In this document: one piece after another, positions 11,521 to 63,992 of the stretch
Layout of the letters: the number at the start of each line of letters is the position of its first letter
How positions within the stretch are numbered: the stretch's first letter is position 1
DNA from: Trypanosoma brucei
Lineage: Eukaryota
Direction: 5' to 3'
Assembly: GCA_000002445.1 (NCBI GenBank)
Contig: CP000071.1
Location: 1,888,001 to 1,952,000, forward strand
DNA: 64,000 bases
Translations under genes and position numbers: made by a program
Notes under the pieces: generated by a model
Seen by the model: only the letters and a program-made list of their open reading frames with translations
The model's database searches: none
What the model was told of the DNA's origin: nothing

Positions 11521-11559
<39 letters not shown>
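11521..11559. repeat. (AT)n dinucleotide microsatellite, about 19 units
   Basis: Direct read. Confidence 0.9.
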
Positions 11560-11562
<3 letters not shown>

Positions 11563-35119: not shown

Positions 35120-35150
<31 letters not shown>

Positions 35151-35791: not shown

Positions 35792-35851
35792 GATGATGAT
35801 GATGATGATGATAGTAGTAGTAGTAGTAGTAATAATAATAATAATAATAAT
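35792..35851. repeat. compound trinucleotide microsatellite (GAT)7(AGT)6(AAT)7
   Basis: Direct read: tgatgatgatgatgatgatgat agtagtagtagtagtagt aataataataataataataat. Confidence 0.9.
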
Positions 35852-37041
35852 GACAGTAAAAAAAAAAAAGAGGATGAAGGGAATGTAATGTAATGTAACG
35901 TTGTCAGTCCAGTTGCAAAAAATAATAATAATAATAATAAACACGGATGGCTCATGACTGGAAGAAAGAGTAGGAAAAGTGTAAAGTCAAATACAAACAC
36001 AAACACAAATAAATACAAAATAAGCGAGAAAGGGAGGGAGGGAAAGCATTTTACTTCTCGATAGAATAAAAGTAACAAAGTTTAAAAGTAAAAGTCAAAA
36101 AAAAAAAAAGCAAACCAAAGCAGCAACAAAAAAGGATGGAGGTACTAACAGGAAAAAAAAAAGAAATATACCAATAATAATAATAATAATCATAATCATA
36201 GTAATACCGGTGAATCCCACACCTCCTCAAAAGCATACAAACACAAAATTTCCACATCATTCCTCAAATTCCTCCTTTTTTTTTTTTACCGCCACGGTGT
36301 GCGGTTTCAGTTGTCCGTCATTCGTACAAATTAAAGGTTAAAGTAAAAAAAAACAAAAAAGTCATAACTGAATGAGCGAATGTGAGATGGCTACAATATA
36401 GAAAGCGGGAGGATGAGGAAGAGGGATACAACACACAAAAACAAACAAATAAATAAAGGCAAAGGCAAAAATAAATAAATAAATATATATATATATATAT
36501 ATATATGCACGTTTGTTTATTTATCAGCGTGGATGTATGGGAACTGATAGTGTGGAGGGAGAAATGTAAATAAAAATAATAATAATAATAATAATAACGA
36601 ATGGAGTGAATGTTTTTTCCCCTGTTTGAATACGCGGCAAGAGAGAAAAGGGAGGGGAAAGCACGGGAGCACTGCAGGAATATATTGTAGAAATATTATA
36701 AGCATTCACATTTACATATTTTAAATGCATTCGTGTGCGCTCGCTCCCTTATTCCCTCACACATTTTCTCTGTTTTGCGATAGTATACGACGTATATGAA
36801 AGACTAACTAGCCGAACTCCTCTCTCTTTTCCTCCCGGTAAATGATGCTTTTCCCTTCCTTTTTTTTTCTCTTCTGCTGTTGTTGCTGTTTTCGTCTTCA
36901 GGTCATCTTTCCTTTGATAAACTGCTTCATCAGATAGGTAAATGTACCATCATGCGTTTTTTTCTTTGAATTTTCGAACGCACCCGTAAGACTTTTCTCT
37001 CTTCAATATACATGCACAGATGCATATTCGAATGCGTAAAT

Positions 37042-49700: not shown

Positions 49701-51367
49701 ATACGGCCCGAACTCCACTCATTAAAGAGGTCTCGCCTTGGTGCATCTAAGGTCTGACCAGTTAACGCCATAGCTGGAAGGTCATAGGCGCGGAGCGCGT
49801 AGACCTGATCCTGAATCAGAGAAACAAGGGGGGATATTACAATGGTGACTTTCGCCGGATTTGGTAACAGCGCCGGTAGTTGGTAGCAGAGAGACTTGCC
49901 TCCTCCGGTTGGCAAGAGCACGAACACGTCACGATTGGCCATACATGCATTCATAATCTCCAACTGAAGGAAACGGAAATTGTGGAGACCGAAAACATCA
50001 ACCATGGTTCGACGCAGCTCTTCCGACCACGGATAATGCTCCCCGGAAAACTCCCCCGTGGACGCTTTAGCGATGCTAACAGGGTCCTGGTTGGAACCGT
50101 GCAGCGATGCGTCCAGAAGCTCCCTCTCACATGATTCCCACGTGAAGCGATTTGGGTTATTGCCTCCTTTAAACTGAGCGGAGTAAACAGCTACCTTGCC
50201 TTCAACCACTTCTTCTGTGGCTGTGCGCAGTGCCCCTACACCAGAAAATACTTCACCACCCCGTCCCGCTGCAGCAAATGCATCGTGAGCACCATTTCCC
50301 TCACCGAATGCACCACCACTGGACTCCACTACTGATGGAAGCTGGTGGGGTGCGACACCACGCTCCCCGCTATGGGTGAAGGCCGCCCCAGCGTACCCCG
50401 GAGAGGGCGATACAAATACAGGAGCGGAGACCTGAGTAGGCACTGCCGCTGAATAAAAGCCATTAGAATCAAGCGGAACGCGTGTGCCATTCGCACCACT
50501 TGCAGAACTCAAAGTGCCAGAAACAGAACCGGGGGGTTTACTACTTGTGGCAACGACGTGAGGAAGAGAGACATTGGGGTTACGTCCTAGAAGCTCTCGC
50601 TGCCGTTGTCTTAGGTTGGCGAATAGCACCTCTAGTGCCGCCAATTTGCGGTCAGCCTCCTCCACGACCTCGCTAGTGTCACACTCCTCATTCTCCCGTA
50701 ATAGCATATCATCACGGTATCTCCTTTGACGGTGGATTTCCTCTATCACCTCCGACAAATTTGCCTTCAATTCCGATAGCGGTTGTGCTGAAGAGCCCAC
50801 AGAGGGTGCAGGAAACGAAGGTAAGGAAGAGGAAGCGACAGGCCTTCCCCCGTCAGAACCCTGCAGTGCCACATCAGTCTGCACTGTAAATCGTTCAGCA
50901 TTCCCTCCGCCACTGTTAAAAGATTGTTTCTGAGTATTTGCAGTCGCAACACACCTTTTCACATCATGCGGTACAGTCGGTCTTCCTGCCACTTCAACGC
51001 TTGTGGAGGCGGTGGCGAGAGCGGCAACCACACTTGTAGTTCTCGCCGCGGTAATAGTTGCACTACCAGCAGTAGCCGCGATGGCATTAGAATTGGTATT
51101 AACAGGATCTACTGTAGTGTTGGGATCCGGATAAACGCACACACTCTGCGTCATGTCGCAAGCATGATTCGTGGGAGCCGGAAAAGCACCGGGACCAGCG
51201 GCAAACAATTTCCGTGCCCCTTCCTCACGAGGCTGCGGGTTCGACTCACTACTGGATTGTACAGGCGGTAGACCACGAGGTAGTGGGTCGTTCTTCACTA
51301 GGGCCGCCGTGGCGCTGACTACAAGTGGGCGCCACTTATCCAAGACGCAACTTAAATCTTTGTCCAT
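46721..51367 (-). CDS. RecQ-family ATP-dependent DNA helicase (BLM/Sgs1-like) with long low-complexity N-terminal extension and HRDC-containing C-terminus
   Basis: ATG at 51367 (track start 51400 is TTG). Helicase motif I LLPTGGGKSLCYQLPAL, DEAH box VVDEAHCVSQWGHDFRPDY, motif III ALTATAT, RQC Zn-binding region (CDNCA..), and the HRDC-like region (LASTSLTGRS... / LTEQGWGSVSQFSDLEGFGKNKVKKFG). Confidence 0.9.
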   Translation of the reverse strand: MDKDLSCVLDKWRPLVVSATAALVKNDPLPRGLPPVQSSSESNPQPREEGARKLFAAGPGAFPAPTNHACDMTQSVCVYPDPNTTVDPVNTNSNAIAATAGSATITAARTTSVVAALATASTSVEVAGRPTVPHDVKRCVATANTQKQSFNSGGGNAERFTVQTDVALQGSDGGRPVASSSLPSFPAPSVGSSAQPLSELKANLSEVIEEIHRQRRYRDDMLLRENEECDTSEVVEEADRKLAALEVLFANLRQRQRELLGRNPNVSLPHVVATSSKPPGSVSGTLSSASGANGTRVPLDSNGFYSAAVPTQVSAPVFVSPSPGYAGAAFTHSGERGVAPHQLPSVVESSGGAFGEGNGAHDAFAAAGRGGEVFSGVGALRTATEEVVEGKVAVYSAQFKGGNNPNRFTWESCERELLDASLHGSNQDPVSIAKASTGEFSGEHYPWSEELRRTMVDVFGLHNFRFLQLEIMNACMANRDVFVLLPTGGGKSLCYQLPALLPNPAKVTIVISPLVSLIQDQVYALRAYDLPAMALTGQTLDAPRRDLFNEWSSGRIVCTLVYVTPEYFGRSDHFVQSLKSLENRGLLNRFVVDEAHCVSQWGHDFRPDYRKLAALKHHFPQVPISALTATATDTVQRDIIQTLGLHNAVSFKGSFNRHNLKYSVQRITSKAGSTVAEIIKKNFPPRSCGIVYCISKKDCEEMAAVLRKEGIRASYYHADASEKNEKQEQWTRDELQVLCATVAFGMGINKPDVRFVIHAAMPKSIEGYYQESGRAGRDGLSSKCFLLFAAGDRQRHEQMICGSKDSQTSMLSLCHMVGYTLNDVHCRRMQQLSYFGEHVSDHFCLTAPGDVEICDNCASRKEEGWEPEMIDVTSILIDFFNITIYIGSLTQKQLIAVYRGTSDVGNIVERRLRQKGAPPEYRKGSRHSKVLLGRVLNEGITLGVFKARFERLTEFGVCAYLDPGDSEGIKILNSMKTGQRKIQLVVRGEKRVRANRERESTIASDAVAVGERKGKSNKKDAGRNRKSASTRRGSGEQFEDDEDDDDVADDQARRPQLRSSRHAVARTSSKRKGVRDNELILGDCEGLASTSLTGRSSNNTVVIDDVTDGDASSLSEANSSSSQASPSCVEVIQQLGRKRSRANNNSSDRSTESPPALPSRVTGAAAGPLRDKGKRRTSKSKSANALGSKSFTLADAQLENIKASFLLELEALLRKLAENSDGGRKYHVMSRKTMETLAATLTEQGWGSVSQFSDLEGFGKNKVKKFGVDILRLYRKFRNEHIGDVGLLTGLEEDMLLQTTTVIADRHRLSRGSPSAGRTVDESEENTGEHTPWKGNKPPLLQGSVTPSDSDVTPQKTSVTTPYQQGSPGGDPVREGSLPTGSAPPVPMGRPSAPKKTMFKMMAAAPTNAEPQPSQQLLNNPTLEGNTLNECELPIRRTPLAESPELLSSYTQMATPLPLPGQSNRQSPSATAFECASRGGNACLPHPEEQQPKVDIMSVDYLMQMCDESLKLNALGPPAGVVPWASPDPVLQKPRRDTPPEVFTVDSQ

Positions 51368-53149
51368 AGGACAAAACACTAAAAAATAAGTAATACACAA
51401 ACTTTATACAACGACACAATACCAACCACAACCTCAAAATAAACTTGCGTATCGCTGAGAGGCGGAGTGATGTGAGCGCTGAGGCGCAAATATATAGAAA
51501 GAGGGTTAAAAAATCCCTTTCCCACAGGTTCACTGACTCCCCTCTCCAGCCAATGTACTCTTTTTTCTTTTCTGTACCCCTTCCCTAATTATGTCGTAAG
51601 GGTTGCCTACACACACACGGGTAAACAGACAGGTGATTACAAGATGGGTAAGGGTGAGAAACGAAGTTCAAATATAAACGCGTCGACGGCGGGGCACCTA
51701 ACACAAGGGCAGTATTGAAGATAATCAATGAATTCTGTGGACAGATGGAACGCAGGAAAAAAAATAAAACCAAGACATATGTAGACTGCTGCCACTGTAG
51801 GCAGGACTCTTCCTCTCCCTCTCTGTACACATTCTCTCCCATTACCCCCTACCGCTTTCCTTTTCACATACAGACACGCTTGTGAGGCGCAAAACACAAT
51901 TAGAAGAAAGGAACGGATTTACACATACACACGTAATGATCATCACCTCAGCTTAGCTGAACTCCCCGCACCCTCCAGTAAAGAATCCGAAAAATGCGTA
52001 TTTTTATCGTACCTCGAATATAACGATTGCGTTATGACCAGTAGCGATAACATCAACAACACGGAGGTCCCAGTCACCGGCAGCTCTTTTGGTAATAACA
52101 GGGAAAGAAAACACAACAAATAAATAAATAAAGTACGAACAAGAAGAATAGCATTTCCCTTTCTTCCAGCGGCTTATGGGCATCAGGAGAGGAAAGACAA
52201 TGGAAACTCCCCCAATGAAAGATGGCGGAAGCGTTGCACACACACAATCGTAAACGGGCATATACTCCTCCGTGTCTGAAACAGAAAGAACGACAAACAG
52301 ACAAGTAAAGCGATGTTATTAAGCCTACCACCGCGACAGCAAGCAGAATATATATATATATATATGAAATAGATAGACCGGTACGCCCACAGAGACAAAT
52401 AAAATTACGCCCACACACCTATTGACGGTAAAGCAACACTATAGTGATGTAATTAATGTTTACAAACCGACGTCTACGTACTAGGGAACAAATTTGATGA
52501 CAATAAAAGGTGTGTACCTCAATGGAAATGAAAAAAAAATAAGTAAAAGCACATATTTGCCGCGTAACGGAAACTGAATCATCTCGACCACATGCCTTCG
52601 CGCCTCTTTCTTTGCATTCGCATGAAACGAGAGAAAGGTTCACAAACATGTTGAATTAACTTTAGGGGAAAGAACGAAAAAATGTACAGACAAATAGGTG
52701 GTCGGTACACCCTCTCAGACATCCCTTCACACACGTGAACAGGTGCGAAGAGGCGTGACGACGACGGTAAACAAAAATAACACTGCACAGGGATCTAACT
52801 CAGGGGAAACGGAAGAATCATATTAGTGATCACAAAAAAAAATATCTTTCCCATTTTTTAGAGAAGCGAAGGCGCACAATGGTGAATGCCCGCCGAACGT
52901 AACCCACGGTGAGAATACCCTAAAGCGAATCCAGGAATACTCAAGGATATATAGACAGAGAAAGAGAAGCACAGAGACGTCTTTTTTTTTTTTTCACTCC
53001 TTGCAAACCCTTCAGTATCCGCTTCCCTCCTCAGATTTTCCTCCCCACAATCCTCTTGCACCTCCCATTGGGTGCAGGCATACAAATGCACAATGAAAAG
53101 AGGGATGAATTTTCCCAACCTTTTGTTCCGCTTCCTCACGTTTGGATCA

Positions 53150-54793
53150 TTAAGAAGCCTCCGGCGAGGTCTTGGCACTACCCCAAACACAAGAACCACG
53201 GAGCATGACATAAATCCCGACCGCAAACATCAGACTTCCAAGGAGAAACCCGACGGAAAGCATGAAGACACCCGGCGTTATATCTTCACAGTCCGGCATG
53301 GCAGTTAGCGCAATGTCGAGCATAAAATTACATTCCAGCAGCGGTCGACCTATTGAAAGTGCAACACTGACGTTACGCGACCGTGCAGCCACACGTACGA
53401 CTTCGATAGAGACGTTCTTTGCCCTGCCCTCCGTACAATTGGCCGCACACTCCACTACCGTGCAAGAATTTCCGGGAGTAGGGCATGAACCAACGAAGGC
53501 CTTCACCCGTGTGTCCTCCAGTACTGTTGCTGTGATGCCAAAGTTTGGACACTCATCGGATGAGGTGATATTCTTTCCACAAGTCAGAACCTTCACGGGA
53601 AAAGTACCACCCACATTCCTAGCTGCCGCATGACTTACAAACCCACTTGCTATGAAAGAAGCAGGGGCGTCAGGGGATATGTCGCTAGATCGCGTGTTCG
53701 GCTTACCGTTTCTGTCTTTGAGGTAACCAGAAGGCACATAACCATCATAAGATACACTTGATCCCGAAAAACGACTCATACTTGGGCCACGCATATCCAG
53801 ATTATCACAGTTATCAAGCAAATAATTGCAAGCCTCCCTACAAATGCCAATCTCCGCGTCTGTCACTTTCTTGTTAATAGCATCAGGGCGAAACTTGCTA
53901 TTGCATAATGGGATTCCGTACCACTGGATAATGCCAGGCTTTCGCTCACGGTGAAGTGCAATCTCGCCACACACAGATGAAGAAGCATAGCTCAACAGGA
54001 ACAAAACAGCACCGCCAACTGAAAAAACAAGCCCGAAAACGAAATATGCACAAGCGAAGCATTCGGGCACTATCAAAGGACCTCGGCGACAGCAAGCAAG
54101 AATAACCATCGGAGCCATCAACGCAATACATACGGAACCCACCGCATAAGAAACAACAGGTAACAACTTAATATAATCTCCCGCTCTACCTCTCAACATT
54201 TCAACAACACGAACGGCGTTTTCCGATATATCATAGAAAAAGCTCACATCAACACCATCAGCGTATGGCTCTCTATTTCCAGAGGTCCAGTTAGACGCAA
54301 AATCAATAACTTTTTCCGCAGTGCAGTTCACAACATTCAACGGATTCATCAATGTTACATCGAGAAAATAATTTGAGGTTGCCCACAACTGCTTCACCCC
54401 AAAGAACACAAATGCAGCAACACCAAAAGCCCATATTAAAGCAAACATAATCCACATCCAAAGGCAGCAACGTTGTTCCTTACCTCCGTCCTTAGAGGAA
54501 GGCTTGCAACGGGAGGAACACAGGCATGTAAGAAAGCAAGATATGGGGAAAGCAATTAACACAGCCACGAAAAGGAAAGCACAGAGAGCAGGCATTGCTA
54601 ACATACGCCACTGCGCTAAGATACGGTCGGTATCCATAATGCACGTAAGAGGGTCATTTCGAGCACTGGGCCCATCCCAGACATTGTCACAGTGAAGATT
54701 TGGAAACTTGGAGTTTCCGCATTGCGTAACTGTTAACAACAGCACCAATAACACTGCAGCATAGAAAGAGCTGCCAGTGGTAACGGAGGACAT
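53150..54793 (-). CDS. multi-pass membrane protein, tandem family copy 1 (most divergent, 547 aa)
   Basis: ATG at 54793. It shares the N-terminal 45 aa (MSSVTTGSSFYAAVLLVLLLTVTQCGNSKFPNLHCDNVWDGPSA) and TM2/TM3 (FPISCFLTCLCSSRCKPSSKDGGKEQRCCLWMWIMFALIWAFGVAAFVFFG) with copies 2 to 4. Confidence 0.8.
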   Translation of the reverse strand: MSSVTTGSSFYAAVLLVLLLTVTQCGNSKFPNLHCDNVWDGPSARNDPLTCIMDTDRILAQWRMLAMPALCAFLFVAVLIAFPISCFLTCLCSSRCKPSSKDGGKEQRCCLWMWIMFALIWAFGVAAFVFFGVKQLWATSNYFLDVTLMNPLNVVNCTAEKVIDFASNWTSGNREPYADGVDVSFFYDISENAVRVVEMLRGRAGDYIKLLPVVSYAVGSVCIALMAPMVILACCRRGPLIVPECFACAYFVFGLVFSVGGAVLFLLSYASSSVCGEIALHRERKPGIIQWYGIPLCNSKFRPDAINKKVTDAEIGICREACNYLLDNCDNLDMRGPSMSRFSGSSVSYDGYVPSGYLKDRNGKPNTRSSDISPDAPASFIASGFVSHAAARNVGGTFPVKVLTCGKNITSSDECPNFGITATVLEDTRVKAFVGSCPTPGNSCTVVECAANCTEGRAKNVSIEVVRVAARSRNVSVALSIGRPLLECNFMLDIALTAMPDCEDITPGVFMLSVGFLLGSLMFAVGIYVMLRGSCVWGSAKTSPEAS

Positions 54794-55350
54794 TGTTTCA
54801 CGTGCAAGTATATTACTTATACCTTTTTGTCTTCATTCCAACAACATAGGAGGAAAGCAAAAGTGATATAAAGTAAAGTGGGAATGTTGGAGACAACAAA
54901 TACAGGTATGTATGTATTCATAAACATGTGCATATATTCACAATAAAATACCGGTGTAGTAATTTAGCCAAGGCACAAGCAAATACTAGCAGTAACTCCT
55001 CGTTGATATAATCATCAGGAGACACATGCGTATAAAAAAACCACACGCAAATCATATGGAATTGCAAGTAGTGCCAATAAGGAGCGACAGCGGTAAGGCG
55101 CCTGAGCATAACCACATATTTCATTACACCCAAACTTCTAGAAGGGAAATTATCCTCCTACGAGCTGGGCGATGACTACATGCCGGCTTAACACCAACCC
55201 AAGTAGAAACCTCCACATACACACACACACACACAAAGAGGGAAAACAAACCTGCACTGAACATCGTGTTGACATGTGGTAACAGCGACACACTTAGGGT
55301 GCCGGATGGGAAAAACACATCCCCGGATATAGATATATTTAAAAAAGAGA
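54794..55350. repeat. conserved upstream intergenic block of the membrane-protein array (copy A)
   Basis: Near-identical to 57432..57990 and 60136..60700 over about 550 bp. Contains a (CA)n tract and a duplicated 71-codon pseudo-ORF. Confidence 0.85.
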
Positions 55351-55646
55351 AATGAGGACATCACTTTTCGACAAGTCACATAATCTAAGGGTTGACAGTC
55401 CGTATCTTCTTCTGAGAGGAGCTTTTTTTTCCTTTTATTCCATATTGACAGGGAAAGTAAAAACATATCGATGTATTTACATGAAATGTCTCACCTTACA
55501 CAGACAAAGTATGATGACGACACGGACAGAAACTACTAATAAAGCAATAAAAATCAAATATATAACATGTAAACTCGGGAAAGTACACACAACAAGGATC
55601 GGAGTATTCCAAGGCATCCCATATAAAATAAACACATTCACTACCC

Positions 55647-57431
55647 TCATTCTCGAACGTATTCCTTATTCTCCCTCAAATCCCCTTCATCTTTTAGTTT
55701 GTTGCAACCTTCTGGATCACTCCAAATACAGGAACCACGAAGTAGTATATAGATGGACAGCGCAAACATCATACCACCCAAGAAAAGGGCAGCCGAAAGC
55801 ATCATCGCACTACCAAAGAAATCTCCACAGTGGGGCAGAGCTGTCAGCAAAGTATCAAATATGAAGTTGCATTCCAGTAGCGGGCGACCAATGGAAAGTG
55901 CAATACTTACATTAGTTGCTAATCCCGCAACGGTGACAAGTGTACCCGCCATACCTTTAGCTTCATCTCCCCTACATTTCTCTGCGCATTCTTGCAGAGT
56001 GCACGCCCTGCCATCACCTGGGCAAATCAGATAACCCCCCTTAACCTTTGTGTCACTAATGACAGCGGCAGTAAAACCAAAACTCGAACATTCAGTGGCA
56101 TCCTGAAGACCTTTTCCACATTTGAGCGGTTTATTGTTAGGACCAAGCGGCAGGCCTAGAAACTGAGAAGTTGTAGCGGGTATTAAATTCCCGCTGCCAG
56201 GAAAACGGGACTGCAACGCGTCGGCCCCAGCTGCACCAAGAGTAACATTGGCTTTATTACTGACGTTGCTGGTAACTCCGGGTATGTTGGGTCCAAATTT
56301 AGCTTCCAACTCCTTTTCGTTTTCAAAGTCCTCTGGTTTCATGTCGGGTGGGAGAGCCTTTGGGTCCAATCCGGGTGGGAGATTCCTTCCAAGAAGGGCA
56401 GCCACTCCTCCCACACCAGTTATATCACCGAGTTGTGATGTGTCATTATCACAGTACTCGAGAATTTTTGTACATGCCTTCTGCGACACATCCTTCTGGG
56501 CATTGAAAATCATCTCGTTAAGATTCGCAAAATTAAACTTTTCTTGACACATGGGTAAAGCATACAGCTGAATCAATCCCGGGCTCCGATCGTAGTGCAA
56601 AGCAACTTCACCACAGATAGTGCCGATGACGTACGACAACAGAATCATGAGAAAACCAAGCGCCATAAACAGGATTGCAAATAGCCAATATACACACGAG
56701 AGCAACCGCGGTAACCACTTGCTACAGCAGCGGAAGTAAGCGAACACAAACATGGGAACCATCACTAAAATCGCAAAAGTTCCGATGCAGAAGGAAACAG
56801 TGGGGATCCAGCGCATATACTGCTTGTAAGCTGCCCTCCCCTCATCAATATAACCCCTAGCAAGACCAAGAACACTATCTATCGTTTCGCGACTAATTCC
56901 CTCCTGTAACGACTGATTTTTACCCCAGTCAAACGCTAATTTAAGAATCTTATCTGCAGTACAGTCTAGGAAATTTATTGGATTTTCCACCGTTTTCATT
57001 ATGAGGGTAGTGGCAGCTGTCTCAAGCTGCCGGGCTCCAAAGAACACAAATGCAGCAACACCAAAAGCCCATATTGAAGCAAACATAATCCACATCCAAA
57101 GGCAGCAACGTTGTTCCTTACCTCCGTCCTTAGAGGAAGACTTGCAGCGGGAGGAACACAGGCATGTAAAGAACCAAGATATGGGGAAAGCAACTAATGT
57201 TGCCACGAGTAATAGAGCAGCCAAGGCTGGAACAAAAATATCCTCCCAATGAGATAAGATACGTTTCTTGTCCTTAATGCACGTAAGAGGGTCATTTTGA
57301 GCACTGGGCCCATCCCAGACATTGTCACAGTGAAGATTTGGAAACTTGGAATTTCCGCATTGCGTAACTGTTAACAACAGCACCAATAACACTGCAGCAT
57401 AGGAAGAGCTGCCAGTGGTAACGGAGGACAT
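55647..57431 (-). CDS. multi-pass membrane protein, tandem family copy 2 (594 aa)
   Basis: Same conserved N-terminus, about six hydrophobic segments, and Cys-rich extracellular loops (LKCGKGLQDATECSSFGFTAAVISDTKVKG...ALSIGRPLLECNFIFDTLLTALPHCGD). Confidence 0.85.
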   Translation of the reverse strand: MSSVTTGSSSYAAVLLVLLLTVTQCGNSKFPNLHCDNVWDGPSAQNDPLTCIKDKKRILSHWEDIFVPALAALLLVATLVAFPISWFFTCLCSSRCKSSSKDGGKEQRCCLWMWIMFASIWAFGVAAFVFFGARQLETAATTLIMKTVENPINFLDCTADKILKLAFDWGKNQSLQEGISRETIDSVLGLARGYIDEGRAAYKQYMRWIPTVSFCIGTFAILVMVPMFVFAYFRCCSKWLPRLLSCVYWLFAILFMALGFLMILLSYVIGTICGEVALHYDRSPGLIQLYALPMCQEKFNFANLNEMIFNAQKDVSQKACTKILEYCDNDTSQLGDITGVGGVAALLGRNLPPGLDPKALPPDMKPEDFENEKELEAKFGPNIPGVTSNVSNKANVTLGAAGADALQSRFPGSGNLIPATTSQFLGLPLGPNNKPLKCGKGLQDATECSSFGFTAAVISDTKVKGGYLICPGDGRACTLQECAEKCRGDEAKGMAGTLVTVAGLATNVSIALSIGRPLLECNFIFDTLLTALPHCGDFFGSAMMLSAALFLGGMMFALSIYILLRGSCIWSDPEGCNKLKDEGDLRENKEYVRE

Positions 57432-57990
57432 TGTTTCACGTGCAAGTATATTACTTATACCTTTTTGTCTTCATTCCAACAACATAGGAGGAAAGCAAAA
57501 GTGATATAAAGTAAAGTGGGAATGTTGGAGACAACAAATACAGGTATGTATGTATGTATTCATAAACATGTGCATATATTCACAATAAAATACCGGTGTA
57601 GTAATTTAGCCAAGGCACAAGCAAATACTAGCAGTAACTCCTCGTTGATATAATCATCAGGAGACACATGCGTATAAAAAAACCACACGCAAATCATATG
57701 GAATTGCAAGTAGTGCCAATAAGGAGCGACAGCGGTAAGGCGCCTGAGCATAACCACATATTTCATTAAACCCAAACTTCTAGAAGGGAAATTATCCTCC
57801 TACGAGCTGGGCGATGACTACATGCCGGCTTAACACCAACCCAAGTAGAAACCTCCACATACACACACACACACACACAAAGATGGAAAACAAACCTGCA
57901 CTGAACATCGTGTTGACATGTGGTAACAGCGACACACTTACAATGCGGTATGGAATAAAGGTATTGCCGAATATTTTTTAAAAAAAGAGA
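57432..57990. repeat. conserved upstream intergenic block (copy B)
   Basis: See copy A. Confidence 0.85.
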
Positions 57991-58287
57991 AAGCAGTAAA
58001 CAGGGAGCAATTATTTTATACCGCAACGCAATCGAAAAGTAGAAGGTTAACTCTTTCTTCTAGTTGAATTTTAGTCCTTTTTTTCCCGACACACTAATAG
58101 GTCGAGAAAAAAATAATTACGTCCGTATTTACATGAAATGTCTCACCTCACAATCGTCCCGTGAATGCGACGCAAGCAAAAACTATTAATAAAGCAATAA
58201 AAATTAAATATATGACGTGTAAACTCGGGAAAGTATACACAACCCGAATAACAGTACTCCGGGGTGTCCCATATAAAACAAACACGT

Positions 58288-60135
58288 TTACTGTTCTTCT
58301 TTCTTCCCATACCCTTCACAGTCATTGGTCTCTTCATGATTATTATTATTTTTTTTTCCGCAATCCTCTTCATCCTCATCCTCATACTCCTCTTCTTCGT
58401 CTTCATCTTGACTTTTCAAATTAGTCCAAATACAGGAACCACGAAGTAGTATATAGATGGACAGCGCAAACATCATACCACCCAGGAAAAATCCAACAGC
58501 AAGCATCATCGTGCTGCCAAAAATGTCGGCACAGTTAGGCAAAGCTGTCAGTACGGTATCAAATATGAAGTTGCATTCCAGTAGCGGACGACCAATGGAA
58601 AGTGCAATACTTACATTAGTTGCTAATCCTGCAATAGTAACAAGTTTATTTGCCATTTCCTTAGCTTCATTCCTTCCACAGCTAGTCGCACATTCTTGCA
58701 GAGTGCATGCCCTGCCAACCTCTGGGCAGACGAAAAGCTTCCCTTTAACCTTTGTGTCACTGATGACAGCAGCAGTAAAACCAAAACTCGAACATTCAGT
58801 GGCATTCTTAAGATCCTTTCCACATTTCAGGTACTTCTCAGATGAATGAGGTAATGCACGGTAAAGCTCAGAGAGTTTAGCGTGTGCTAGGTCCCCATTG
58901 CCTTCACGAGGGTACCGCAACCCACCAGTCCCAGCTGCAACGAGAGGGAAATCACGCCGGGTGTTAGGATTACCAGCGACTCCGGGTATGTTGGGTCCAA
59001 ATTTAGCTTCCAATTCTCTTTCGTTTTCAAAGTCCTCTGGTTTCAAGTTAGCTGGTAGAGATTTTGGGTCCAATCCGGGTGGGAGATTCCTTCCAAGAAG
59101 GGCAGCCACTCCTCCCACACCAGTTATATCACCGAGTTCAGATGCATCTCCATCACAGTACTCGAGAATTTGTTCACATGCCTTCTGCGACACATCCTTC
59201 TGGGCATTGAAAACCATCTCGTTAAGATTGGCAAAATTAAACTTTTCTTGACACATGGGTAAAGCATACCATTGAATCAATCCCGGGCTCCGATCGTAGT
59301 GCAAAGCAATTTCACCACAGATGGATCCAACAGCGTACGACAACAGAATCATGAGAAAACCAAGCGCCATAAACAGGATTGCAAATAGCCAATAAACACA
59401 CGAGAGCAACCGCGGTAACCACTTGCTACAGCAGTGAAAGTAAGCGAACACAAACATGGGAACGATCAAGGAAACCGCAAAAGTTCCGATGCAGAAAGAA
59501 ACAGTGGGAACCCAATGTACGTATTGTTCATAGGTTGCCCTCCCCTCCCGAACATAACCCCTAGCAAGACCAACAACACTATCTATCGTTTCGCGACTAA
59601 TTCCATTCTGTAACGGCCGCTTTGCACTCCAGTCATACGCTAAATCAAGAATCTTATCTGCAGTACAGTCTAGGAAATTTATTGGATTTTCCACCGTTTT
59701 CATTATGAGGGTAGTGGCAGCTGTCTCAAGCTGCCGGGCTCCAAAGAACACAAATGCAGCAACACCAAAAGCCCATATTAAAGCAAACATAATCCACATC
59801 CAAAGGCAGCAACGTTGTTCCTTACCTCCGTCCTTAGAGGAAGGCTTGCAACGGGAGGAACACAGGCATGTAAGAAAGCAAGATATGGGGAAAGCAACTA
59901 ATGTTGCCACGATAATGAAAGCAGCAGCAACCGGAAATGCAATCTTCTGCCATTGGCCTTTCATGAGATCTGCATCTTTCAGACACTTCATAATTTCATT
60001 TTGAGCACTGGGCCCATCCCAGACATTGTCACAGTGAAGATTTGGAAACTTGGAGTTTCCGCATTGCGTAACTGTTAACAACAGCACCAATAACACTGCA
60101 GCATAGAAAGAGCTGCCAGTGGTAACGGAGGACAT
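58288..60135 (-). CDS. multi-pass membrane protein, tandem family copy 3 (615 aa, acidic DE-rich tail)
   Basis: As above. The C-terminal tail reads DEDEEEEYEDEDEEDCGKKNNNNHEETNDCEGYGKKEEQ. Confidence 0.85.
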   Translation of the reverse strand: MSSVTTGSSFYAAVLLVLLLTVTQCGNSKFPNLHCDNVWDGPSAQNEIMKCLKDADLMKGQWQKIAFPVAAAFIIVATLVAFPISCFLTCLCSSRCKPSSKDGGKEQRCCLWMWIMFALIWAFGVAAFVFFGARQLETAATTLIMKTVENPINFLDCTADKILDLAYDWSAKRPLQNGISRETIDSVVGLARGYVREGRATYEQYVHWVPTVSFCIGTFAVSLIVPMFVFAYFHCCSKWLPRLLSCVYWLFAILFMALGFLMILLSYAVGSICGEIALHYDRSPGLIQWYALPMCQEKFNFANLNEMVFNAQKDVSQKACEQILEYCDGDASELGDITGVGGVAALLGRNLPPGLDPKSLPANLKPEDFENERELEAKFGPNIPGVAGNPNTRRDFPLVAAGTGGLRYPREGNGDLAHAKLSELYRALPHSSEKYLKCGKDLKNATECSSFGFTAAVISDTKVKGKLFVCPEVGRACTLQECATSCGRNEAKEMANKLVTIAGLATNVSIALSIGRPLLECNFIFDTVLTALPNCADIFGSTMMLAVGFFLGGMMFALSIYILLRGSCIWTNLKSQDEDEEEEYEDEDEEDCGKKNNNNHEETNDCEGYGKKEEQ

Positions 60136-60700
60136 TGTTTCACGTGCAAGTATATTACTTATACCTTTTTGTCTTCATTCCAACAACATAGGAGGAAAGC
60201 AAAAGTGATATAAAGTAAAGTGGGAATGTTGGAGACAACAAATACAGGTATGTATGTATTCATAAACATGTGCATATATTCACAATAAAATACCGGTGTA
60301 GTAATTTAGCCAAGGCACAAGCAAATACTAGCAGTAACTCCTCGTTGATATAATCATCAGGAGACACATGCGTATAAAAAAACCACACGCAAATCATATG
60401 GAATTGCAAGTAGTGCCAATAAGGAGCGACAGCGGTAAGGCGCCTGAGCATAACCACATATTTCATTACACCCAAACTTCTAGAAGGGAAATTATCCTCC
60501 TACGAGCTGGGCGATGACTACATGCCGGCTTAACACCAACCCAAGTAGAAACCTCCACATACACACACACACACACAAAGAGGGAAAACAAACCTGCACT
60601 GAACATCGTGTTGACATGTGGTAACAGCGACACACTTAGGGTGCCAGATGGGAAAAACACATCCCCGGATATAGATATATTTCTTAAAAGAGAAAGCAGT
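60136..60700. repeat. conserved upstream intergenic block (copy C)
   Basis: See copy A. Confidence 0.85.
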
Positions 60701-60979
60701 AAACAAGGAATTTTTTTCCACAGCTAATTTAGGGAGAAAAAGTCAATGTTTTCTTCCGACCGAAACATATATTCCCTTTTTACCCATACTGACAGGGAAA
60801 GTAAACACATATCTCTGTATTTACATGAAATGTCTCACCTCACAATCGTCCCGTGAATGCGACGCAAGCAAAAACTATTAATAAAGCAATAAAAATTAAA
60901 TATGTAACGTGTAAACTCGGGAAAGTACACACAACCCGAATAACAGTACTCCGGGGTGTCCCCCATCCAGTACACGCAA

Positions 60980-62764
60980 TTATTTCCTTGCAGGGCTTTT
61001 GTCAGACTCCCTTTTGTTCTCAGAGTCCTTCTCTTCATCTTCATCCCATCTTTTCAGATCACTCCAAACACAAGATCCACGAAGTAGTATATAGATGGAC
61101 AGCGCAAACATCATACCACCCAAGAAAAATCCAAGACCAAGCATCATCGTTCCCCAATACAAACCGTCACAGTTAGGCAGAGCAGTCAGTACGGTATCAA
61201 ATATGAAGTTGCATTCCAACAGCGGGCGACCAATCGAAAGCCCAATGCTTACATTAACTGCGAGTTGAGCAGCACCCACAAGTGTTTTTGCAATGTTTTG
61301 TGCGTCCGGAACTTTACACTTATCTGCACAAACTTGCAGACTGCAGGGTCTGCCACCATCCGGACAAACCATATAACCCCCCTTAACTTTTGTTCCACTG
61401 ATGACCGCGGCGGTGAAACCAAAGGTTGAACATTCTTCTTTGCTTCCAACCCCCTGGCCACATGTCAGCATCTTATTGCTAGGGCCAAATGGCAGTTGGG
61501 GGAACTGAGTCGCCTTGGCACCAATTACATCCCTCATGTTCCCCGGTAGTGAACCATCAGGGGGAACGCTGCCTTCATAGCGGCGTGGAATCTTCTCCTT
61601 ATCATTAACTCCTGGGATATGTGACTCCAATAAGCTGTCCAAACCCTTTTCGTCTTCAAAGTCCTCTGGTTTCACTCCAGGTGGGAGAGCCTTTGGGTCC
61701 AATCCGGGTGGGAGATTCCTTCCAAGAAGAGCAGCCAGCCCTCCTGTGCCGGTTTGATCACCGAGTTGTGATGTGTCATTATCACAGTACTTGAGAATTT
61801 CTTCACATGCCTTCTGCGACACATCCTTCTGGGCATCTAAAATCATTTTGTTAAGATTCGCAAAATTAAACTTTTCTTCACACATGGGTAAAGCATACCA
61901 TTGAATCAATCCCGGGCTCCGATCGTAGTGCAAAGTTATTTCCCCGCAGACGAGACCGAAGGCATACGCCAACAATAGAATTACTAAACCAAGCGCCGTA
62001 AACAGGATTGCAAATAGCCAATATACACACGAGAGCAACCGCGGTAACCACTTGCTACAGCAGCGGAAGTAAGCAAACATAAACATGGGAACCATCACTA
62101 AGACCGCAAAAGCTCCGATGCAGAAAGAAACAGTGGGAACCCAATGTACGTACTGATCGTAATACCCTTTCGCCATGGTAATGTAACTCCTCGCCATGTC
62201 AACGGTGCTATCTATTGTTTCCCGGCCAATTCCCTCCCGCAGTGGCTCTCCTGTCCTCCAGTCATACGCTAAACCAAGAATCTTATCCGCGGTACACCTG
62301 AGGGAATTCAGCGGTCTGTTAACCCGGTGAGATAGCAAATCGTCCAACGTTATCTTAAGCTGCTGTGCTCCAAATAAAACGAAGACAGCAACACCAAAAG
62401 CCCATATAAAAGCAAACGCAATCCACATCCAAAGGCAGCAACGTTGTTTCCTACCTCTGTCCTTAGAGGAAGGCTTGCAACAAGAGGAACACAGGCATGT
62501 GGAGAAAAAGGTCAGTGGAAAAATGACCACGATTAAGGCGAGAAGTAAACCAGCCAAAACTGGTAACAAAATATCCTCCCAATGAGATAAGATACGTGTC
62601 TTGTCCTTAATGCACGTAAGAGGGTCATTTTGAGCACTGCGTGTAGTCCACAATTTCTGGCAGCCGAGATTTGGAAACTTGGAATTTCCGCATTGCGTAA
62701 CTGTTAACAGCAGCACCAATAACACTGCAGCATAGGAAGAGCTGCCAGTGGTAACGGAGGACAT
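60980..62764 (-). CDS. multi-pass membrane protein, tandem family copy 4 (594 aa)
   Basis: As above, with family-specific substitutions in the loops. Confidence 0.85.
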   Translation of the reverse strand: MSSVTTGSSSYAAVLLVLLLTVTQCGNSKFPNLGCQKLWTTRSAQNDPLTCIKDKTRILSHWEDILLPVLAGLLLALIVVIFPLTFFSTCLCSSCCKPSSKDRGRKQRCCLWMWIAFAFIWAFGVAVFVLFGAQQLKITLDDLLSHRVNRPLNSLRCTADKILGLAYDWRTGEPLREGIGRETIDSTVDMARSYITMAKGYYDQYVHWVPTVSFCIGAFAVLVMVPMFMFAYFRCCSKWLPRLLSCVYWLFAILFTALGLVILLLAYAFGLVCGEITLHYDRSPGLIQWYALPMCEEKFNFANLNKMILDAQKDVSQKACEEILKYCDNDTSQLGDQTGTGGLAALLGRNLPPGLDPKALPPGVKPEDFEDEKGLDSLLESHIPGVNDKEKIPRRYEGSVPPDGSLPGNMRDVIGAKATQFPQLPFGPSNKMLTCGQGVGSKEECSTFGFTAAVISGTKVKGGYMVCPDGGRPCSLQVCADKCKVPDAQNIAKTLVGAAQLAVNVSIGLSIGRPLLECNFIFDTVLTALPNCDGLYWGTMMLGLGFFLGGMMFALSIYILLRGSCVWSDLKRWDEDEEKDSENKRESDKSPARK

Positions 62765-62970
62765 TGTTTCACGTGCAAGTATATTACTTATACCTTTTTG
62801 TCTTCATTCCAACAACATAGGAGGAAAGCAAAAGTGATATAAAGTAAAGTGAGAATGTTGGAGACAACAAATACAGGTATGTATGTATTCATAAACATGT
62901 GCATATATTCAATAAAATACCGGTGTAGCAATTTAGCCAAGGCACAAGCAAATGCTAGCAGTAACTCCTC
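62765..62970. repeat. truncated copy of the conserved intergenic block (first ~200 bp only), marking the array boundary
   Basis: Identity to blocks A to C ends near 62970, where the 3' end of the ERCC4-nuclease gene begins. Confidence 0.7.
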
Positions 62971-63992
62971 GTCAATATAAATTTTGTTAGACACAAATAT
63001 ACTTCTTTTTGTGGCTTCGTCAGGCGATGTATATCTGGGTCAGCGTCGCAGGCATCTACTCCTTGGTATTTCAGCCGGCGCCACAGCCCCAACAGAGAAC
63101 CATACTTCGACGCGAGCTGAATTGCCAGAGGTGCAGAGCAACCCCTTATACACATAAGCATGCGGGGAAATGTAGTCCGAGCCTGGATATCCTTTCTTAT
63201 TTTGTTGATGTATTGTAGGCATTCAGTGCAGTTAGTTACCAACGTTTCTGGGCATTGTTCCATTTTAGTTTTGCACAGTATTGAGCCTACTGACTTCCCA
63301 AGGCTACGGAGAAAGGTGGCTGTTTCAGACAAATGACGTGTCCACACGACACGGAAACGTGGAAGAGACGCAAGCGAGGCACAAGCAGAAAGAACCCGCC
63401 GTCGCTCCTCAACCGTGATGGACTCCATTGTTCCCTCCACAACCCACACAACAGAACGGAAAGGGGACGATGACAGCAGTTGCCGCTGCTCGTAGTAACG
63501 TGAAGAGGTAATGCTGGCACAAAGATCCTTTACTGTTTTCCTTTCCACCACAAGGAATGAGATTTTTTGCGTCTGTCCGTACATTGCCCCTTCACGAAGA
63601 ACAGTGCAACCGGCAGCGTTGCGGCATTGATAATCCGGCACGTTCGCCGAGTTTGCTGAGCACCCAACATTAGGTGAATTGATTCCTATCATAAAGTCTC
63701 CGCACGGGAGGGTGCATGAAACACTAGGCGCGCCGGCGCGGGAACATACTTCGATTAGGTTTTCGTGTGCACCCTTGATGCGTTCGCGGTTATCAACGAG
63801 AAGGTGCCAAGAATAGTTGTTGGAGCAACCCTCTTCTTTAGGCGTCTCGTTTTCATCAGCATCTATATCAGTAGTATTTGTCGGCATGCTGGGTGTTGAA
63901 TGCACCAGCTTCCTTTCCCTCTGCTGGGAGGCAACAAACTCCTTTGGAGTTCCTAGAAGTCGGCCCTGTGGTTCTGACCCTCCTTCCGCCAA
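62955..63992 (-). CDS. ERCC4-domain structure-specific endonuclease (MUS81-like), C-terminal ~345 codons; gene continues past the window end
   Basis: ERCC4 nuclease motifs are LLVDNRER (V-D-x-R-E), LPCGDFMIG (GDF/Y) and VVERKTVKDLCASI (ERK..DL). The frame is still open at 64000. Confidence 0.55.
   Translation of the reverse strand: MAEGGSEPQGRLLGTPKEFVASQQRERKLVHSTPSMPTNTTDIDADENETPKEEGCSNNYSWHLLVDNRERIKGAHENLIEVCSRAGAPSVSCTLPCGDFMIGINSPNVGCSANSANVPDYQCRNAAGCTVLREGAMYGQTQKISFLVVERKTVKDLCASITSSRYYEQRQLLSSSPFRSVVWVVEGTMESITVEERRRVLSACASLASLPRFRVVWTRHLSETATFLRSLGKSVGSILCKTKMEQCPETLVTNCTECLQYINKIRKDIQARTTFPRMLMCIRGCSAPLAIQLASKYGSLLGLWRRLKYQGVDACDADPDIHRLTKPQKEVYLCLTKFILTRSYC

What the first reader, a model, noticed from the sequence alone, without database searches (positions are those of the whole stretch)
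53150..62764. Four-copy tandem array of a ~600-aa multi-pass, Cys-rich membrane protein family with diverging loops
Four head-to-tail genes share a 2.6 to 2.7 kb unit. The N-terminal 45 aa (signal/anchor plus CGNSKFPNLHCDNVWDGPSA) and the transmembrane cores are almost invariant. The predicted extracellular loops and C-terminal tails differ strongly between copies (for example the acidic DE tail only in copy 3, and a deletion of roughly 50 aa in copy 1). I cannot assign the family to any named transporter or surface-protein class from memory. The pattern of conserved TMs with variable exposed loops and cysteines suggests a surface or organellar membrane family under diversifying selection.
Basis: seen in the sequence. 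Interest (0 to 1): 0.6.

Follow-up and report, generated by a model that had tools for sequence, protein, structure and literature searches.

The report
Tweety/prominin-like membrane protein gene array
The four tandem genes are real (Trypanosoma brucei Tb927.8.6700-6730, catalogued since 2007 as "hypothetical") and turn out to be divergent kinetoplastid relatives of the animal Tweety/prominin five-pass membrane proteins, evolving under purifying selection and gene conversion rather than diversifying selection.

Summary
Four head-to-tail genes on the minus strand (547, 594, 615 and 594 aa; unit 2.63-2.70 kb) lie between RecQ (Tb927.8.6690) and a Mus81-like gene on T. brucei TREU927 chr8. The array is already catalogued as tandem array Tb75 / cell-surface phylome Fam72, "hypothetical protein".

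New here is a family assignment. Each protein has a signal peptide and five TM helices (2+2+1).
- A 71-sequence family profile hits the solved TTYH2 structure at E 8.7e-8.
- Close relatives pass Pfam's own thresholds for Prominin (P0042) and Tweety (P0141, a prokinetoplastid protein).
- hhalign links the strict family profile to P0141 at 99% probability, E 2e-18.

Diversifying selection is not supported. dN/dS is 0.37-0.47 between paralogues and about 0.33 between T. b. brucei and T. b. gambiense orthologues. The "invariant" N-terminus has dS near 0 and continues a 98-100% identical upstream block, so it reflects gene conversion. One weak post-hoc hint remains: 13 non-synonymous and 0 synonymous changes at the tip of extracellular loop 1, between copies 2 and 3.

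The proposed function, TTYH-like lipid handling or membrane shaping, is inferred and was not tested.

The parts
53150..54793 (-). Copy 1 CDS (547 aa; XP_847500/Q57TU3; inferred Tb927.8.6700). It is the divergent subtype and the last gene of the array in the direction of transcription.
   Evidence: ORF. Exact match to the database protein. 43-47% identical to copies 2-4, with dS >1 to them. It groups with T. congolense P0013.
55647..57431 (-). Copy 2 CDS (594 aa; XP_847501/Q57TU2; inferred Tb927.8.6710). This is the protein modelled with AF2. It is absent from the T. b. gambiense array.
   Evidence: AF2 model m230dc785abc3 has pLDDT 82.2. The Tbg locus L001 has only three copies.
58288..60135 (-). 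Copy 3 CDS (615 aa; XP_847502/Q57TU1; inferred Tb927.8.6720), with the longest acidic C-terminal tail.
60980..62764 (-). Copy 4 CDS (594 aa; XP_847503/Q57TU0; inferred Tb927.8.6730), the first gene of the array in the direction of transcription.
54794..55646 (-). Intergenic spacer upstream of copy 1 (it also holds the 3' flank of copy 2). Its ATG-proximal ~480 nt are homogenised among the copies.
   Evidence: 98-100% identity among the units of copies 1-3 from about -480 to +100 relative to the ATG. blastn gives 98.4% over 509 nt to 57432-57940 and 91.5% over 808 nt to 60136-60935.
57432..58287 (-). Intergenic spacer upstream of copy 2, containing the homogenised block.
   Evidence: (family D3, 100%).
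60136..60979 (-). Intergenic spacer upstream of copy 3, containing the homogenised block.
62765..62954 (-). Short spacer between the Mus81-like gene and copy 4. It shares only the ATG-proximal ~200 nt of the homogenised block.
   Evidence: blastn 96.8% over 218 nt.
51401..53149 (-). Copy-1-specific 3' flank (putative 3' UTR and spacer before RecQ), unrelated to the 3' flanks of copies 2-4.
   Evidence: About 50% (random-level) identity to the other units downstream of the stop codon. No family fragments found there.
57357..57431 (-). Copy 2, aa 1-25: predicted signal peptide.
   Evidence: Hydrophobic segment at aa 4-22. The AF2 helix at aa 9-24 is separate from the bundle. Cleavage is inferred.
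57033..57239 (-). Copy 2, aa 65-133: TM1, then the short Cys-rich cytoplasmic loop (CLCSSRCK...RCC), then TM2.
   Evidence: Hydropathy. Aligns in register with TM1-loop-TM2 of TTYH2/3, including the Cys cluster. This is also the region of the sub-threshold Prominin and Tweety Pfam hits.
56799..57032 (-). Copy 2, aa 134-211: extracellular loop 1. It is a helical hairpin that extends TM2 and TM3.
56898..56942 (-). Copy 2, aa 164-178: tip of extracellular loop 1, where non-synonymous-only differences between copies 2 and 3 cluster.
   Evidence: 13 non-synonymous and 0 synonymous differences over columns 100-195; binomial P 0.04, Fisher P 0.002 against the rest of the gene; window chosen post hoc.
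56625..56798 (-). Copy 2, aa 212-269: TM3, a short cytoplasmic loop, and TM4.
   Evidence: Aligned to TM3-TM4 of TTYH2.
55812..56624 (-). Copy 2, aa 270-540: large Cys-rich extracellular loop 2. It carries the family motifs CGE..L...R.PG..QWY..P.C and N-x-S..LS..RPLLECNF.
   Evidence: Nearly invariant Cys at positions 320, 327, 438, 448, 470, 477, 482 and 486 across 71 sequences. The distal part aligns to the pre-TM5 region of TTYH2 (NNSE...LDC).
56169..56420 (-). Copy 2, aa 338-421: variable, predicted-disordered insert within loop 2. Most of the length variation between copies lies here.
   Evidence: pLDDT <50 over aa 338-351 and 386-421. Alignment gaps fall here. dN/dS is 0.4-0.5 among copies 2-4. 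The region is absent from the hhalign match to P0141.
55650..55811 (-). Copy 2, aa 541-594: TM5 and the acidic cytoplasmic tail.
   Evidence: Aligns to TM5 and the acidic tail of TTYH2.

Best explanation
The four genes (T. brucei Tb927.8.6700-6730) encode divergent kinetoplastid members of the Tweety-homologue/prominin superfamily of pentaspan membrane glycoproteins. Each has a signal peptide, an extracellular N-terminus, five TM helices in a 2+2+1 pattern, and a palmitoylation-type Cys cluster after TM1. The ectodomain is a helical bundle built from extensions of the TM helices and probably braced by disulfides. The cytoplasmic tail is acidic.

Shown here: homology and fold. Inferred: by analogy with TTYH2 and Prom1/Ttyh1, the proteins sit in the plasma, flagellar-pocket or endosomal membrane and handle outer-leaflet lipids. 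That could mean facilitating exchange of lipids or sterols between the bilayer and soluble carriers, stabilising curved membrane, or both. They are unlikely to be channels or transporters. The membrane-distal loop tip and the disordered insert in loop 2 are the parts free to vary and may set partner specificity.

The array holds two old subtypes: copy 1, and copies 2-4. It evolves by purifying selection (omega about 0.3-0.45) combined with patchy gene conversion. Conversion keeps the 5' flank, the first ~45 codons and the loop1/TM2 segment nearly identical, and shuffles patches between copies and between subspecies.
For: Topology: six hydrophobic segments, read as a signal peptide plus five TM helices, with a conserved N-x-S sequon and conserved Cys in the loops.

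Sequence homology:
- The 71-sequence family profile hits TTYH2 7rtt_A at E 8.7e-8 in two collinear blocks (TM1-TM4, and pre-TM5+TM5). It also hits 7p54 (4e-6), 9g6x (6e-6) and TTYH1 (0.0024). The best unrelated hit is at 0.011.
- The strict 21-sequence profile still has TTYH2/3 as its six best PDB hits, E 0.003-0.06.
- 14 of 71 members hit Pfam Prominin and 3 of 71 hit Tweety.
- P0042 (E 1.7e-42 to the array profile) exceeds the Prominin gathering score, 36.1 vs 34.3 bits.
- P0141 from the prokinetoplastid Apiculatamorpha exceeds the Tweety gathering score, 42.4 vs 31.8 bits, over aa 45-341.
- hhalign links P0141 to the strict family profile at 99.0% probability, E 2.3e-18, over 288 columns.

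Function of relatives: TTYHs are not channels. They have a lipid-filled hydrophobic cavity, and TTYH2 accelerates lipid transfer from APOE lipoproteins (PMC12328215). [quoted passage not shown]

Evolution: dN/dS is 0.37-0.47 between paralogues. dS is about 0 in the N-terminus and in IC1/TM2, contiguous with 98-100% identical upstream DNA. Differences from T. b. gambiense are clustered and switch to another copy's sequence. pS in the array is 0.033-0.064 against 0.008 in the flanking RecQ, with pN/pS about 0.33. Copy 1 pairs with a T. congolense protein.
Against: - The T. brucei proteins themselves do not reach Pfam's thresholds. The best is Tweety at 17.4 bits against 31.8, E 0.0019, for copy 4; Prominin is at E 0.056. 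A single-sequence search of PDB finds nothing.
- With the strict profile the TTYH hits are only marginal, E about 0.003.
- Foldseek TM-scores are low (0.3-0.47) and its E-values modest.
- The fold rests on a predicted model, not a solved structure.
- Nothing here tests localisation, dimerisation, the lipid cavity or any activity.
- The function of TTYH and prominin is itself still debated.
Confidence: 0.85

Rival explanations
1. This is a parasite surface-antigen-like family whose exposed loops are under diversifying (immune-driven or host-ligand-driven) selection.
For: The loops and tail vary much more than the core. The family is included in the African-trypanosome cell-surface phylome as Fam72, with accelerated rates in the T. 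congolense copies (PMC3605285). Between copies 2 and 3, the EC1 tip tract has 13 non-synonymous and 0 synonymous differences (P 0.04; Fisher P 0.002 against the rest of the gene).
Against: dN/dS is 0.37-0.47 for every paralogue pair and below 1 in every domain. Orthologue pN/pS is 0.32-0.34 for copies 3 and 4. The most variable segment is predicted disordered, with omega about 0.4-0.5, which indicates relaxed constraint. The family is ancient: it occurs in Phytomonas and in a free-living prokinetoplastid, and there is a single-copy chr11 paralogue. The array lies in a core housekeeping polycistron, not a subtelomere. The EC1 signal is post hoc and rests on 13 substitutions.
Confidence: 0.1
2. 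The proteins are anion (maxi-Cl- or volume-regulated) channels, which is the original functional assignment of the Tweety family.
For: Homology to TTYH. Older literature describes TTYHs as chloride channels or VRAC-swell subunits (PMC6526117, listed; the PMC8273234 abstract describes them as gated chloride channels).
Against: [quoted passage not shown] Nothing in the kinetoplastid sequences suggests a polar pore. The best-conserved motifs are extracellular Cys and Pro/Gly motifs.
Confidence: 0.04
3. The similarity to TTYH/prominin is convergent or artefactual: a generic five-helix membrane protein with long helices that matches by composition. On this view the family is an unrelated kinetoplastid-specific invention.
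Confidence: 0.05

Closest known systems
Tweety homologues (TTYH1-3; Pfam PF04906; PDB 7p5j, 7rtt, 7p54, 9g71, 9qnr)
   Same: Five TM helices in a 2+2+1 arrangement, extracellular N-terminus and cytoplasmic acidic C-tail. A Cys cluster directly follows TM1. The TM1-TM4 segment is the same length (profile positions 61-289 align to TTYH2 45-273). The ectodomain is made of helical extensions of the TM helices. There is a glycosylation sequon plus a Cys motif just before TM5. TTYH gives the best sequence and structure matches.
   Different: Sequence identity is only 8-13%. The kinetoplastid proteins have a cleavable-type signal peptide and a ~40-aa Cys-containing N-terminal ectodomain. Loop 2 is about 270 aa (about 120 aa in TTYH), with eight nearly invariant Cys and a ~85-aa disordered variable insert. 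The T. brucei members are below the Pfam Tweety threshold. Dimerisation, the lipid cavity and APOE-type partner binding were not tested.
Prominins (Prom1/CD133, Prom2; Pfam PF05478)
   Same: Pentaspan topology with a signal peptide and a Cys-rich TM1/loop-1 junction. Loop 2 is large and glycosylated, of prominin-like size. 14 of 71 family members hit the Prominin model, and P0042 is above its gathering score. The chr11 T. brucei paralogue hits at E 6.8e-5.
   Different: Loop 1 is only about 80 aa, against more than 250 aa in prominins. Total length is about 550-615 aa, against about 800-865. The Pfam matches cover only the TM1-TM2 region (profile positions ~85-227 of 799). Whether there is an equivalent of the conserved Trp-795 of prominins (PMC11405016) was not examined.
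T. brucei tandem array Tb75 / cell-surface phylome Fam72 (Jackson 2007, 2010, 2013)
   Same: It is the same locus. Tb927.8.6700 is listed as a four-copy array of a hypothetical protein, moderately variable, with three copies in T. b. gambiense and homologues in all the trypanosomatid genomes compared. T. congolense has rate-accelerated tandem copies.
   Different: Those papers treat it as an uncharacterised hypothetical protein. They give no fold, family or function. The searchable literature contains no link between trypanosomes and tweety or prominin homologues.

Membership tests
Tweety homologue (TTYH) family / PF04906 | Five transmembrane helices in a 2+2+1 pattern, N-terminus outside and C-terminus inside | tested here: met
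   Hydropathy gives a signal peptide plus five TM segments in all four copies. The AF2 helices agree. Orientation is inferred from the signal peptide, the conserved loop Cys and the conserved N-x-S sequon in loop 2.
Tweety homologue (TTYH) family / PF04906 | Sequence match to the curated Pfam Tweety model at or above its gathering score | tested here: not met
   The best T. brucei array score is 17.4 bits against a cut-off of 31.8 (copy 4, E 0.0019). It is met by the family member P0141 (42.4 bits), which is linked to the family by hhalign at E 2.3e-18.
Tweety homologue (TTYH) family / PF04906 | Significant profile-level similarity to solved TTYH sequences, collinear over the whole protein | tested here: met
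   The broad profile gives E 8.7e-8 to TTYH2, in two collinear blocks covering TM1-TM4 and pre-TM5/TM5. The strict profile is only marginal, E 0.003-0.06, but TTYH proteins are still its top six hits.
Tweety homologue (TTYH) family / PF04906 | TTYH fold: TM bundle with an extended extracellular helical domain formed by the TM extensions | tested here: met
Tweety homologue (TTYH) family / PF04906 | Homodimer mediated by the extracellular domain | not testable with these tools
   No multimer prediction or experiment was available.
Tweety homologue (TTYH) family / PF04906 | Wide hydrophobic, lipid-filled cavity opening from the outer leaflet; acceleration of lipid transfer | not tested
Prominin family / PF05478 | Pentaspan topology with a signal peptide and a Cys-rich TM1/first cytoplasmic loop | tested here: met
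   (CLCSSRCK...RCC after TM1).
Prominin family / PF05478 | Two large (>250-300 aa) glycosylated extracellular loops | tested here: not met
   Loop 1 is about 78 aa; only loop 2 (about 270 aa) is large. Bell et al. required loops of more than 300 aa.
Prominin family / PF05478 | Sequence match to the Pfam Prominin model at or above its gathering score | tested here: not met
   Array copies score E 0.056-0.18, 10-12 bits against a cut-off of 34.3. The relative P0042 passes with 36.1 bits, but only over the TM1-TM2 region.
Tweety/prominin pentaspan superfamily (as proposed by Hori 2019 and Bell 2024) | Homology to both TTYH and prominin, with shared 2+2+1 topology | tested here: met
   Family members hit both models, for example P0033 with Tweety at 1.8e-5 and Prominin at 0.0028.

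The most novel reading that the evidence does not exclude
Kinetoplastids carry their own deep branch of the Tweety/prominin superfamily. In bloodstream T. brucei, which relies on endocytosed host LDL and HDL for lipids (my own background knowledge, not checked here), the tandem paralogues could act like TTYH2: in the flagellar pocket or endosomes they would dock host lipoprotein particles at the ectodomain tip and funnel lipids or sterols into the parasite membrane. Alternatively, like Prom1/Ttyh1, they could drive the membrane nanotubes and extracellular vesicles the parasite sheds. On this reading the variable loop-1 tip and loop-2 insert of the four copies would tune partner specificity. 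That would explain the non-synonymous-only cluster between copies 2 and 3.
Probability: 0.15. Interest if true: 0.8.

Novelty: new member of a known kind. Interest (0 to 1): 0.45.

Why it matters
Since 2007 the locus has been listed only as a "hypothetical protein" array, and later as part of the trypanosome cell-surface phylome. Placing it in the Tweety/prominin superfamily gives it testable functions for the first time: lipid transfer between carriers and membranes, and membrane curvature or vesicle formation. Both are relevant to a parasite that scavenges host lipoproteins and sheds vesicles.

It also extends the superfamily to kinetoplastids, including a free-living prokinetoplastid. The kinetoplastid form is a hybrid: loop 1 is TTYH-sized and loop 2 is prominin-sized. 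This bears on how TTYH and prominin are related.

On method, it shows that an "invariant N-terminus with variable loops" pattern in a trypanosome array can come from gene-conversion tracts rather than from selection on the protein.

Tried and rejected
- Single-sequence searches gave nothing usable. Pfam on the four proteins returned only sub-threshold hits and phmmer against PDB returned nothing.
- The word-indexed homologue search was tried three times and found only T. brucei-group proteins and no functional names.
- AF2 with the four-sequence alignment gave pLDDT 43 and was unusable. It was replaced by the 71-sequence alignment.
- The afdb50 Foldseek library was unavailable, so predicted prominin structures could not be compared.
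- Literature searches for trypanosome with tweety or prominin found no relevant paper. Bell et al. mention prominins in 'excavates' but name no kinetoplastid.
- I looked for a fifth copy or pseudogene fragments in the window and found none.
- I looked for RNA genes or tandem repeats inside the array and found none.
- I considered that the + strand ORF 55352-55864 (170 aa) might be a gene. It lies in the spacer and overlaps the 3' end of copy 2 on the opposite strand. I did not test it, and I treat it as a chance ORF.
- I considered positive selection across the whole gene and rejected it.
- I considered a micro-conversion from copy 4 as the source of the EC1-tip cluster between copies 2 and 3. 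This is unlikely, because a diverged donor (pS 0.44-0.60 in that region) would also have brought in synonymous differences, and there are none.

Full report
**1. The observation**

The window is Trypanosoma brucei brucei TREU927 chromosome 8. All four predicted proteins match database entries exactly: XP_847500 to XP_847503, UniProt Q57TU3, Q57TU2, Q57TU1 and Q57TU0, all named "hypothetical protein, conserved", on a contig of 2,481,190 bp.

The four ORFs lie on the minus strand:
- copy 1: 53150-54793, 547 aa
- copy 2: 55647-57431, 594 aa
- copy 3: 58288-60135, 615 aa
- copy 4: 60980-62764, 594 aa

Start-to-start spacing is 2638, 2704 and 2629 nt. The array sits between a RecQ helicase (46721-51400) and an ERCC4/Mus81-like gene (62955-63992). 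The RecQ ORF carries the YPWSEE motif that PMC3182221 quotes for Tb927.8.6690.

The array is therefore Tb927.8.6700-6730. The per-copy numbering is inferred from the consecutive accessions. The surrounding genes are ordinary core genes: SDH flavoprotein, GST/Tom37-like proteins, a fatty acyl-CoA reductase and an RRM protein. No extra copies or fragments occur in the window.

- Copy 4 differs from the others at 8 positions within aa 34-42 of the "invariant" N-terminus.
- TM1 is variable, and copy 1 is strongly diverged in TM3-TM5.
- Copies 2 and 4 also have acidic tails.

**2. What was already known**

The array is catalogued as tandem array Tb75 (Tb927.8.6700). It is marked as present in all six genome columns of that table and described as "moderately variable" (PMC1855330). 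It has four copies in T. b. brucei and three in T. b. gambiense (PMC2854126). It is family 72 of the African-trypanosome cell-surface phylome, in which the T. congolense tandem copies are rate-accelerated (PMC3605285).

None of these papers assigns a family or a function. No paper in the searchable library links trypanosomes with a tweety or prominin homologue.

**3. Anatomy**

Hydropathy shows six hydrophobic segments in every copy. Residue numbers below are for copy 2:
- signal peptide, aa ~1-25
- N-terminal ectodomain of about 40 aa, with two nearly invariant Cys
- TM1, aa ~65-88
- short cytoplasmic loop with a Cys cluster (CLCSSRCK...RCC)
- TM2, aa 113-133
- extracellular loop 1, about 78 aa
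- TM3, aa 212-232
- short cytoplasmic loop
- TM4, aa 247-269
- extracellular loop 2, about 270 aa and Cys-rich
- TM5, aa ~541-566
- acidic cytoplasmic tail

This 2+2+1 pentaspan layout is that of Tweety homologues and prominins.

**4. Family assignment**

Single-sequence searches gave only sub-threshold hits, but they pointed at Prominin and Tweety.

An exhaustive HMMER search with the four-copy profile found 139 representative clusters. There are two conserved cores (profile positions ~1-335 and ~430-575) and a variable middle.

Named members come from T. congolense, T. melophagium, T. theileri, T. grayi, Phytomonas and Apiculatamorpha spiralis. That Apiculatamorpha is a free-living prokinetoplastid is my own background knowledge, not a tool result. 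There is also an unlinked T. brucei paralogue on chromosome 11 (XP_828270, 570 aa).

The sequence evidence for the Tweety/prominin link is:
- A 71-sequence profile hits solved TTYH2 at E 8.7e-8 in two collinear blocks, TM1-TM4 and pre-TM5/TM5. Other TTYH2 entries score 4e-6 and 6e-6, and TTYH1 scores 0.0024. The best unrelated hit is at 0.011.
- A strict 21-sequence profile (every member at E<1e-37 to the array) still has TTYH2/3 as its six best PDB hits, but only at E 0.003-0.06.
- Scanned individually, 14 of 71 members hit Pfam Prominin and 3 hit Tweety.
- P0042 (E 1.7e-42 to the array) exceeds the Prominin gathering score.
- P0033 hits both models.
- The chr11 paralogue hits Prominin at 6.8e-5.
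- The Apiculatamorpha protein P0141 exceeds the Tweety gathering score over ~300 residues.
- hhalign ties P0141 to the strict profile at 99.0% probability, E 2.3e-18, over 288 columns including the extracellular Cys pattern.

The alignments also share non-TM features with TTYH2: the Cys cluster after TM1, an N-x-S...L.C motif before TM5, and an acidic tail.

**5. Fold**

AF2 with four sequences failed (pLDDT 43). With the 71-sequence alignment it gave pLDDT 82.2 and pTM 0.73. Only aa 1-8, 338-351 and 386-421 came out at low confidence.

Long helices extend TM2, TM3, TM4 and TM5 into the ectodomain, as in TTYH.

Foldseek against PDB returned TTYH1/2/3 as all ten top hits (probability 0.95-1.0). 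E-values were modest (0.005-0.12) and TM-scores low (0.3-0.47).

Three independent lines therefore converge on one family. I put homology to the Tweety/prominin superfamily at about 0.85-0.9.

The proteins are not bona fide members of either Pfam family by the curated thresholds. Their architecture is a hybrid: the TM1-TM4 block and loop 1 are TTYH-length, while loop 2 is prominin-sized and carries eight nearly invariant Cys and a disordered insert.

**6. How it most likely works (inferred)**

According to PMC12328215, TTYHs are homodimers whose anion-channel role has been refuted. They have a wide lipid-filled hydrophobic cavity that opens from the outer leaflet. TTYH2 binds APOE at the ectodomain and accelerates lipid transfer from lipoproteins in endosomes.

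According to PMC11405016, Prom1 and Ttyh1 both bend membranes and generate extracellular vesicles.

By homology, the T. brucei proteins most likely act on outer-leaflet lipids at the surface, flagellar pocket or endosomal membrane. They could facilitate lipid exchange, stabilise curvature, or both. The membrane-distal loop tip and the disordered insert would be the variable, partner-facing parts.

None of this was tested here. I give the mechanism about 0.35, conditional on homology.

**7. Selection against conversion**

Nei-Gojobori dN/dS is 0.37-0.47 for all six paralogue pairs, and no domain has dN>dS.

The "invariant" N-terminus (codons 1-45) and the IC1/TM2 segment have dS of about 0 among copies 1-3. 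The N-terminal tract continues a block running from about -480 to +100 relative to the ATG that is 98-100% identical. This is the signature of gene conversion, not of protein-level constraint.

The similarity map is mosaic. Copies 2 and 4 are 89% identical where copies 2 and 3 are 57% identical. Copy 1 is 83-95% identical to copies 2 and 3 over CDS nt ~225-425, against a background of about 50%.

Differences between T. b. brucei and T. b. gambiense orthologues are clustered. In the T. b. gambiense copy 1, aa 45-88 has switched to the copy-2 sequence. Copy 4 has a patch at aa 470-497.

With the T. b. gambiense DNA (L001, three copies, copy 2 absent):
- pN/pS is 0.32 for copy 3 and 0.34 for copy 4.
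- pN/pS is 0.82 for copy 1, driven by the conversion patch.
- pS in the array is 0.033-0.064, against 0.008 in the flanking RecQ. This fits sequence exchange between paralogues rather than positive selection.

A rough NJ tree that excludes the conversion-prone 5' part pairs copy 1 with T. congolense P0013. It pairs copies 2-4 with P0014, which I take to be T. congolense from its shared N-terminus (not looked up). The two subtypes would then predate the split of those species.

One hint of adaptive change remains. Between copies 2 and 3, alignment columns 100-195 have 13 non-synonymous and 0 synonymous differences, clustered at aa 164-178 at the tip of loop 1 (binomial P 0.04; Fisher P 0.002 against the rest of the gene). 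The window was chosen post hoc and the counts are small, so I report it only as a lead.

**8. Verdict**

The feature is real and was already catalogued as an anonymous array. Its evolutionary interpretation, diversifying selection, is not supported.

The new result is that the family is a divergent kinetoplastid branch of the Tweety/prominin pentaspan superfamily. That makes it a new member of a known kind, with testable lipid-handling or membrane-shaping hypotheses. Interest is moderate (0.45).

The most novel reading not excluded is a role in unloading host lipoproteins or in nanotube/EV biogenesis in bloodstream trypanosomes. I give it a probability of about 0.15, and an interest of about 0.8 if true.

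Noticed in passing
window 3988-4674: A cluster of five tRNA genes on both strands: Ile(AAT) +, Leu(TAA) -, Gln(CTG) -, Gln(CTG) +, Ile(AAT) +. The Ile and Gln genes are duplicated, and the whole set forms a partly palindromic arrangement. The cluster lies just before the point where ORF orientation changes from + (up to ~6.9 kb) to - (from ~10.7 kb). That suggests a divergent strand-switch region.
   Followed up: partly
window 8001-14000 and 32001-36000: Two markedly AT-rich stretches (GC 0.34-0.37 and 0.28-0.29, against about 0.5 in coding regions). The second contains a purine-rich imperfect tandem repeat at 34807-34899. The first coincides with the putative strand-switch region.
   Followed up: no
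window 17878-18807 and 20788-21795 (minus strand): A second tandem pair in the window: two diverged paralogues with GST_N_4/Tom37/GST_C_6 domains, which look metaxin- or SAM37-like.
   Followed up: no
not in the window: T. brucei chr11 (protein P0017 = XP_828270/Q4FKA7, 570 aa): An unlinked single-copy paralogue of the array family. It falls in a separate clade with P0028, P0030, P0018 and a T. melophagium protein (P0016), and hits Pfam Prominin at E 6.8e-5. It may represent a second, older lineage of the family in trypanosomes.
   Followed up: partly
L001 10001-16983 (T. b. gambiense DAL972, FN554971.1): The orthologous array has only three copies, the orthologues of copies 4, 3 and 1. Copy 2 is missing or collapsed in the assembly. 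The spacer upstream of copy 1 is only 87% identical between the subspecies, whereas the flanking Mus81 gene is 99.5% identical.
   Followed up: partly
protein P0012 (3193 aa, EukProt gene model 'gene4087-2935_t'): One gene model matches the array profile in nine separate stretches. It is most likely several tandem copies fused by a gene caller in another kinetoplastid, which would imply a larger array in that organism.
   Followed up: no
L001 5078-5590 and 6692-7204: Upstream of the Mus81-like gene in T. b. gambiense, beyond the end of this window, there is a tandem pair of TCTP genes, 170 aa each.
   Followed up: no
window 62955-63992: The ERCC4/Mus81-like ORF is listed as 345 aa from a TTG start because it runs to the window edge region. 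The T. b. gambiense gene is 614 aa, so the gene is truncated by the end of the window.
   Followed up: partly
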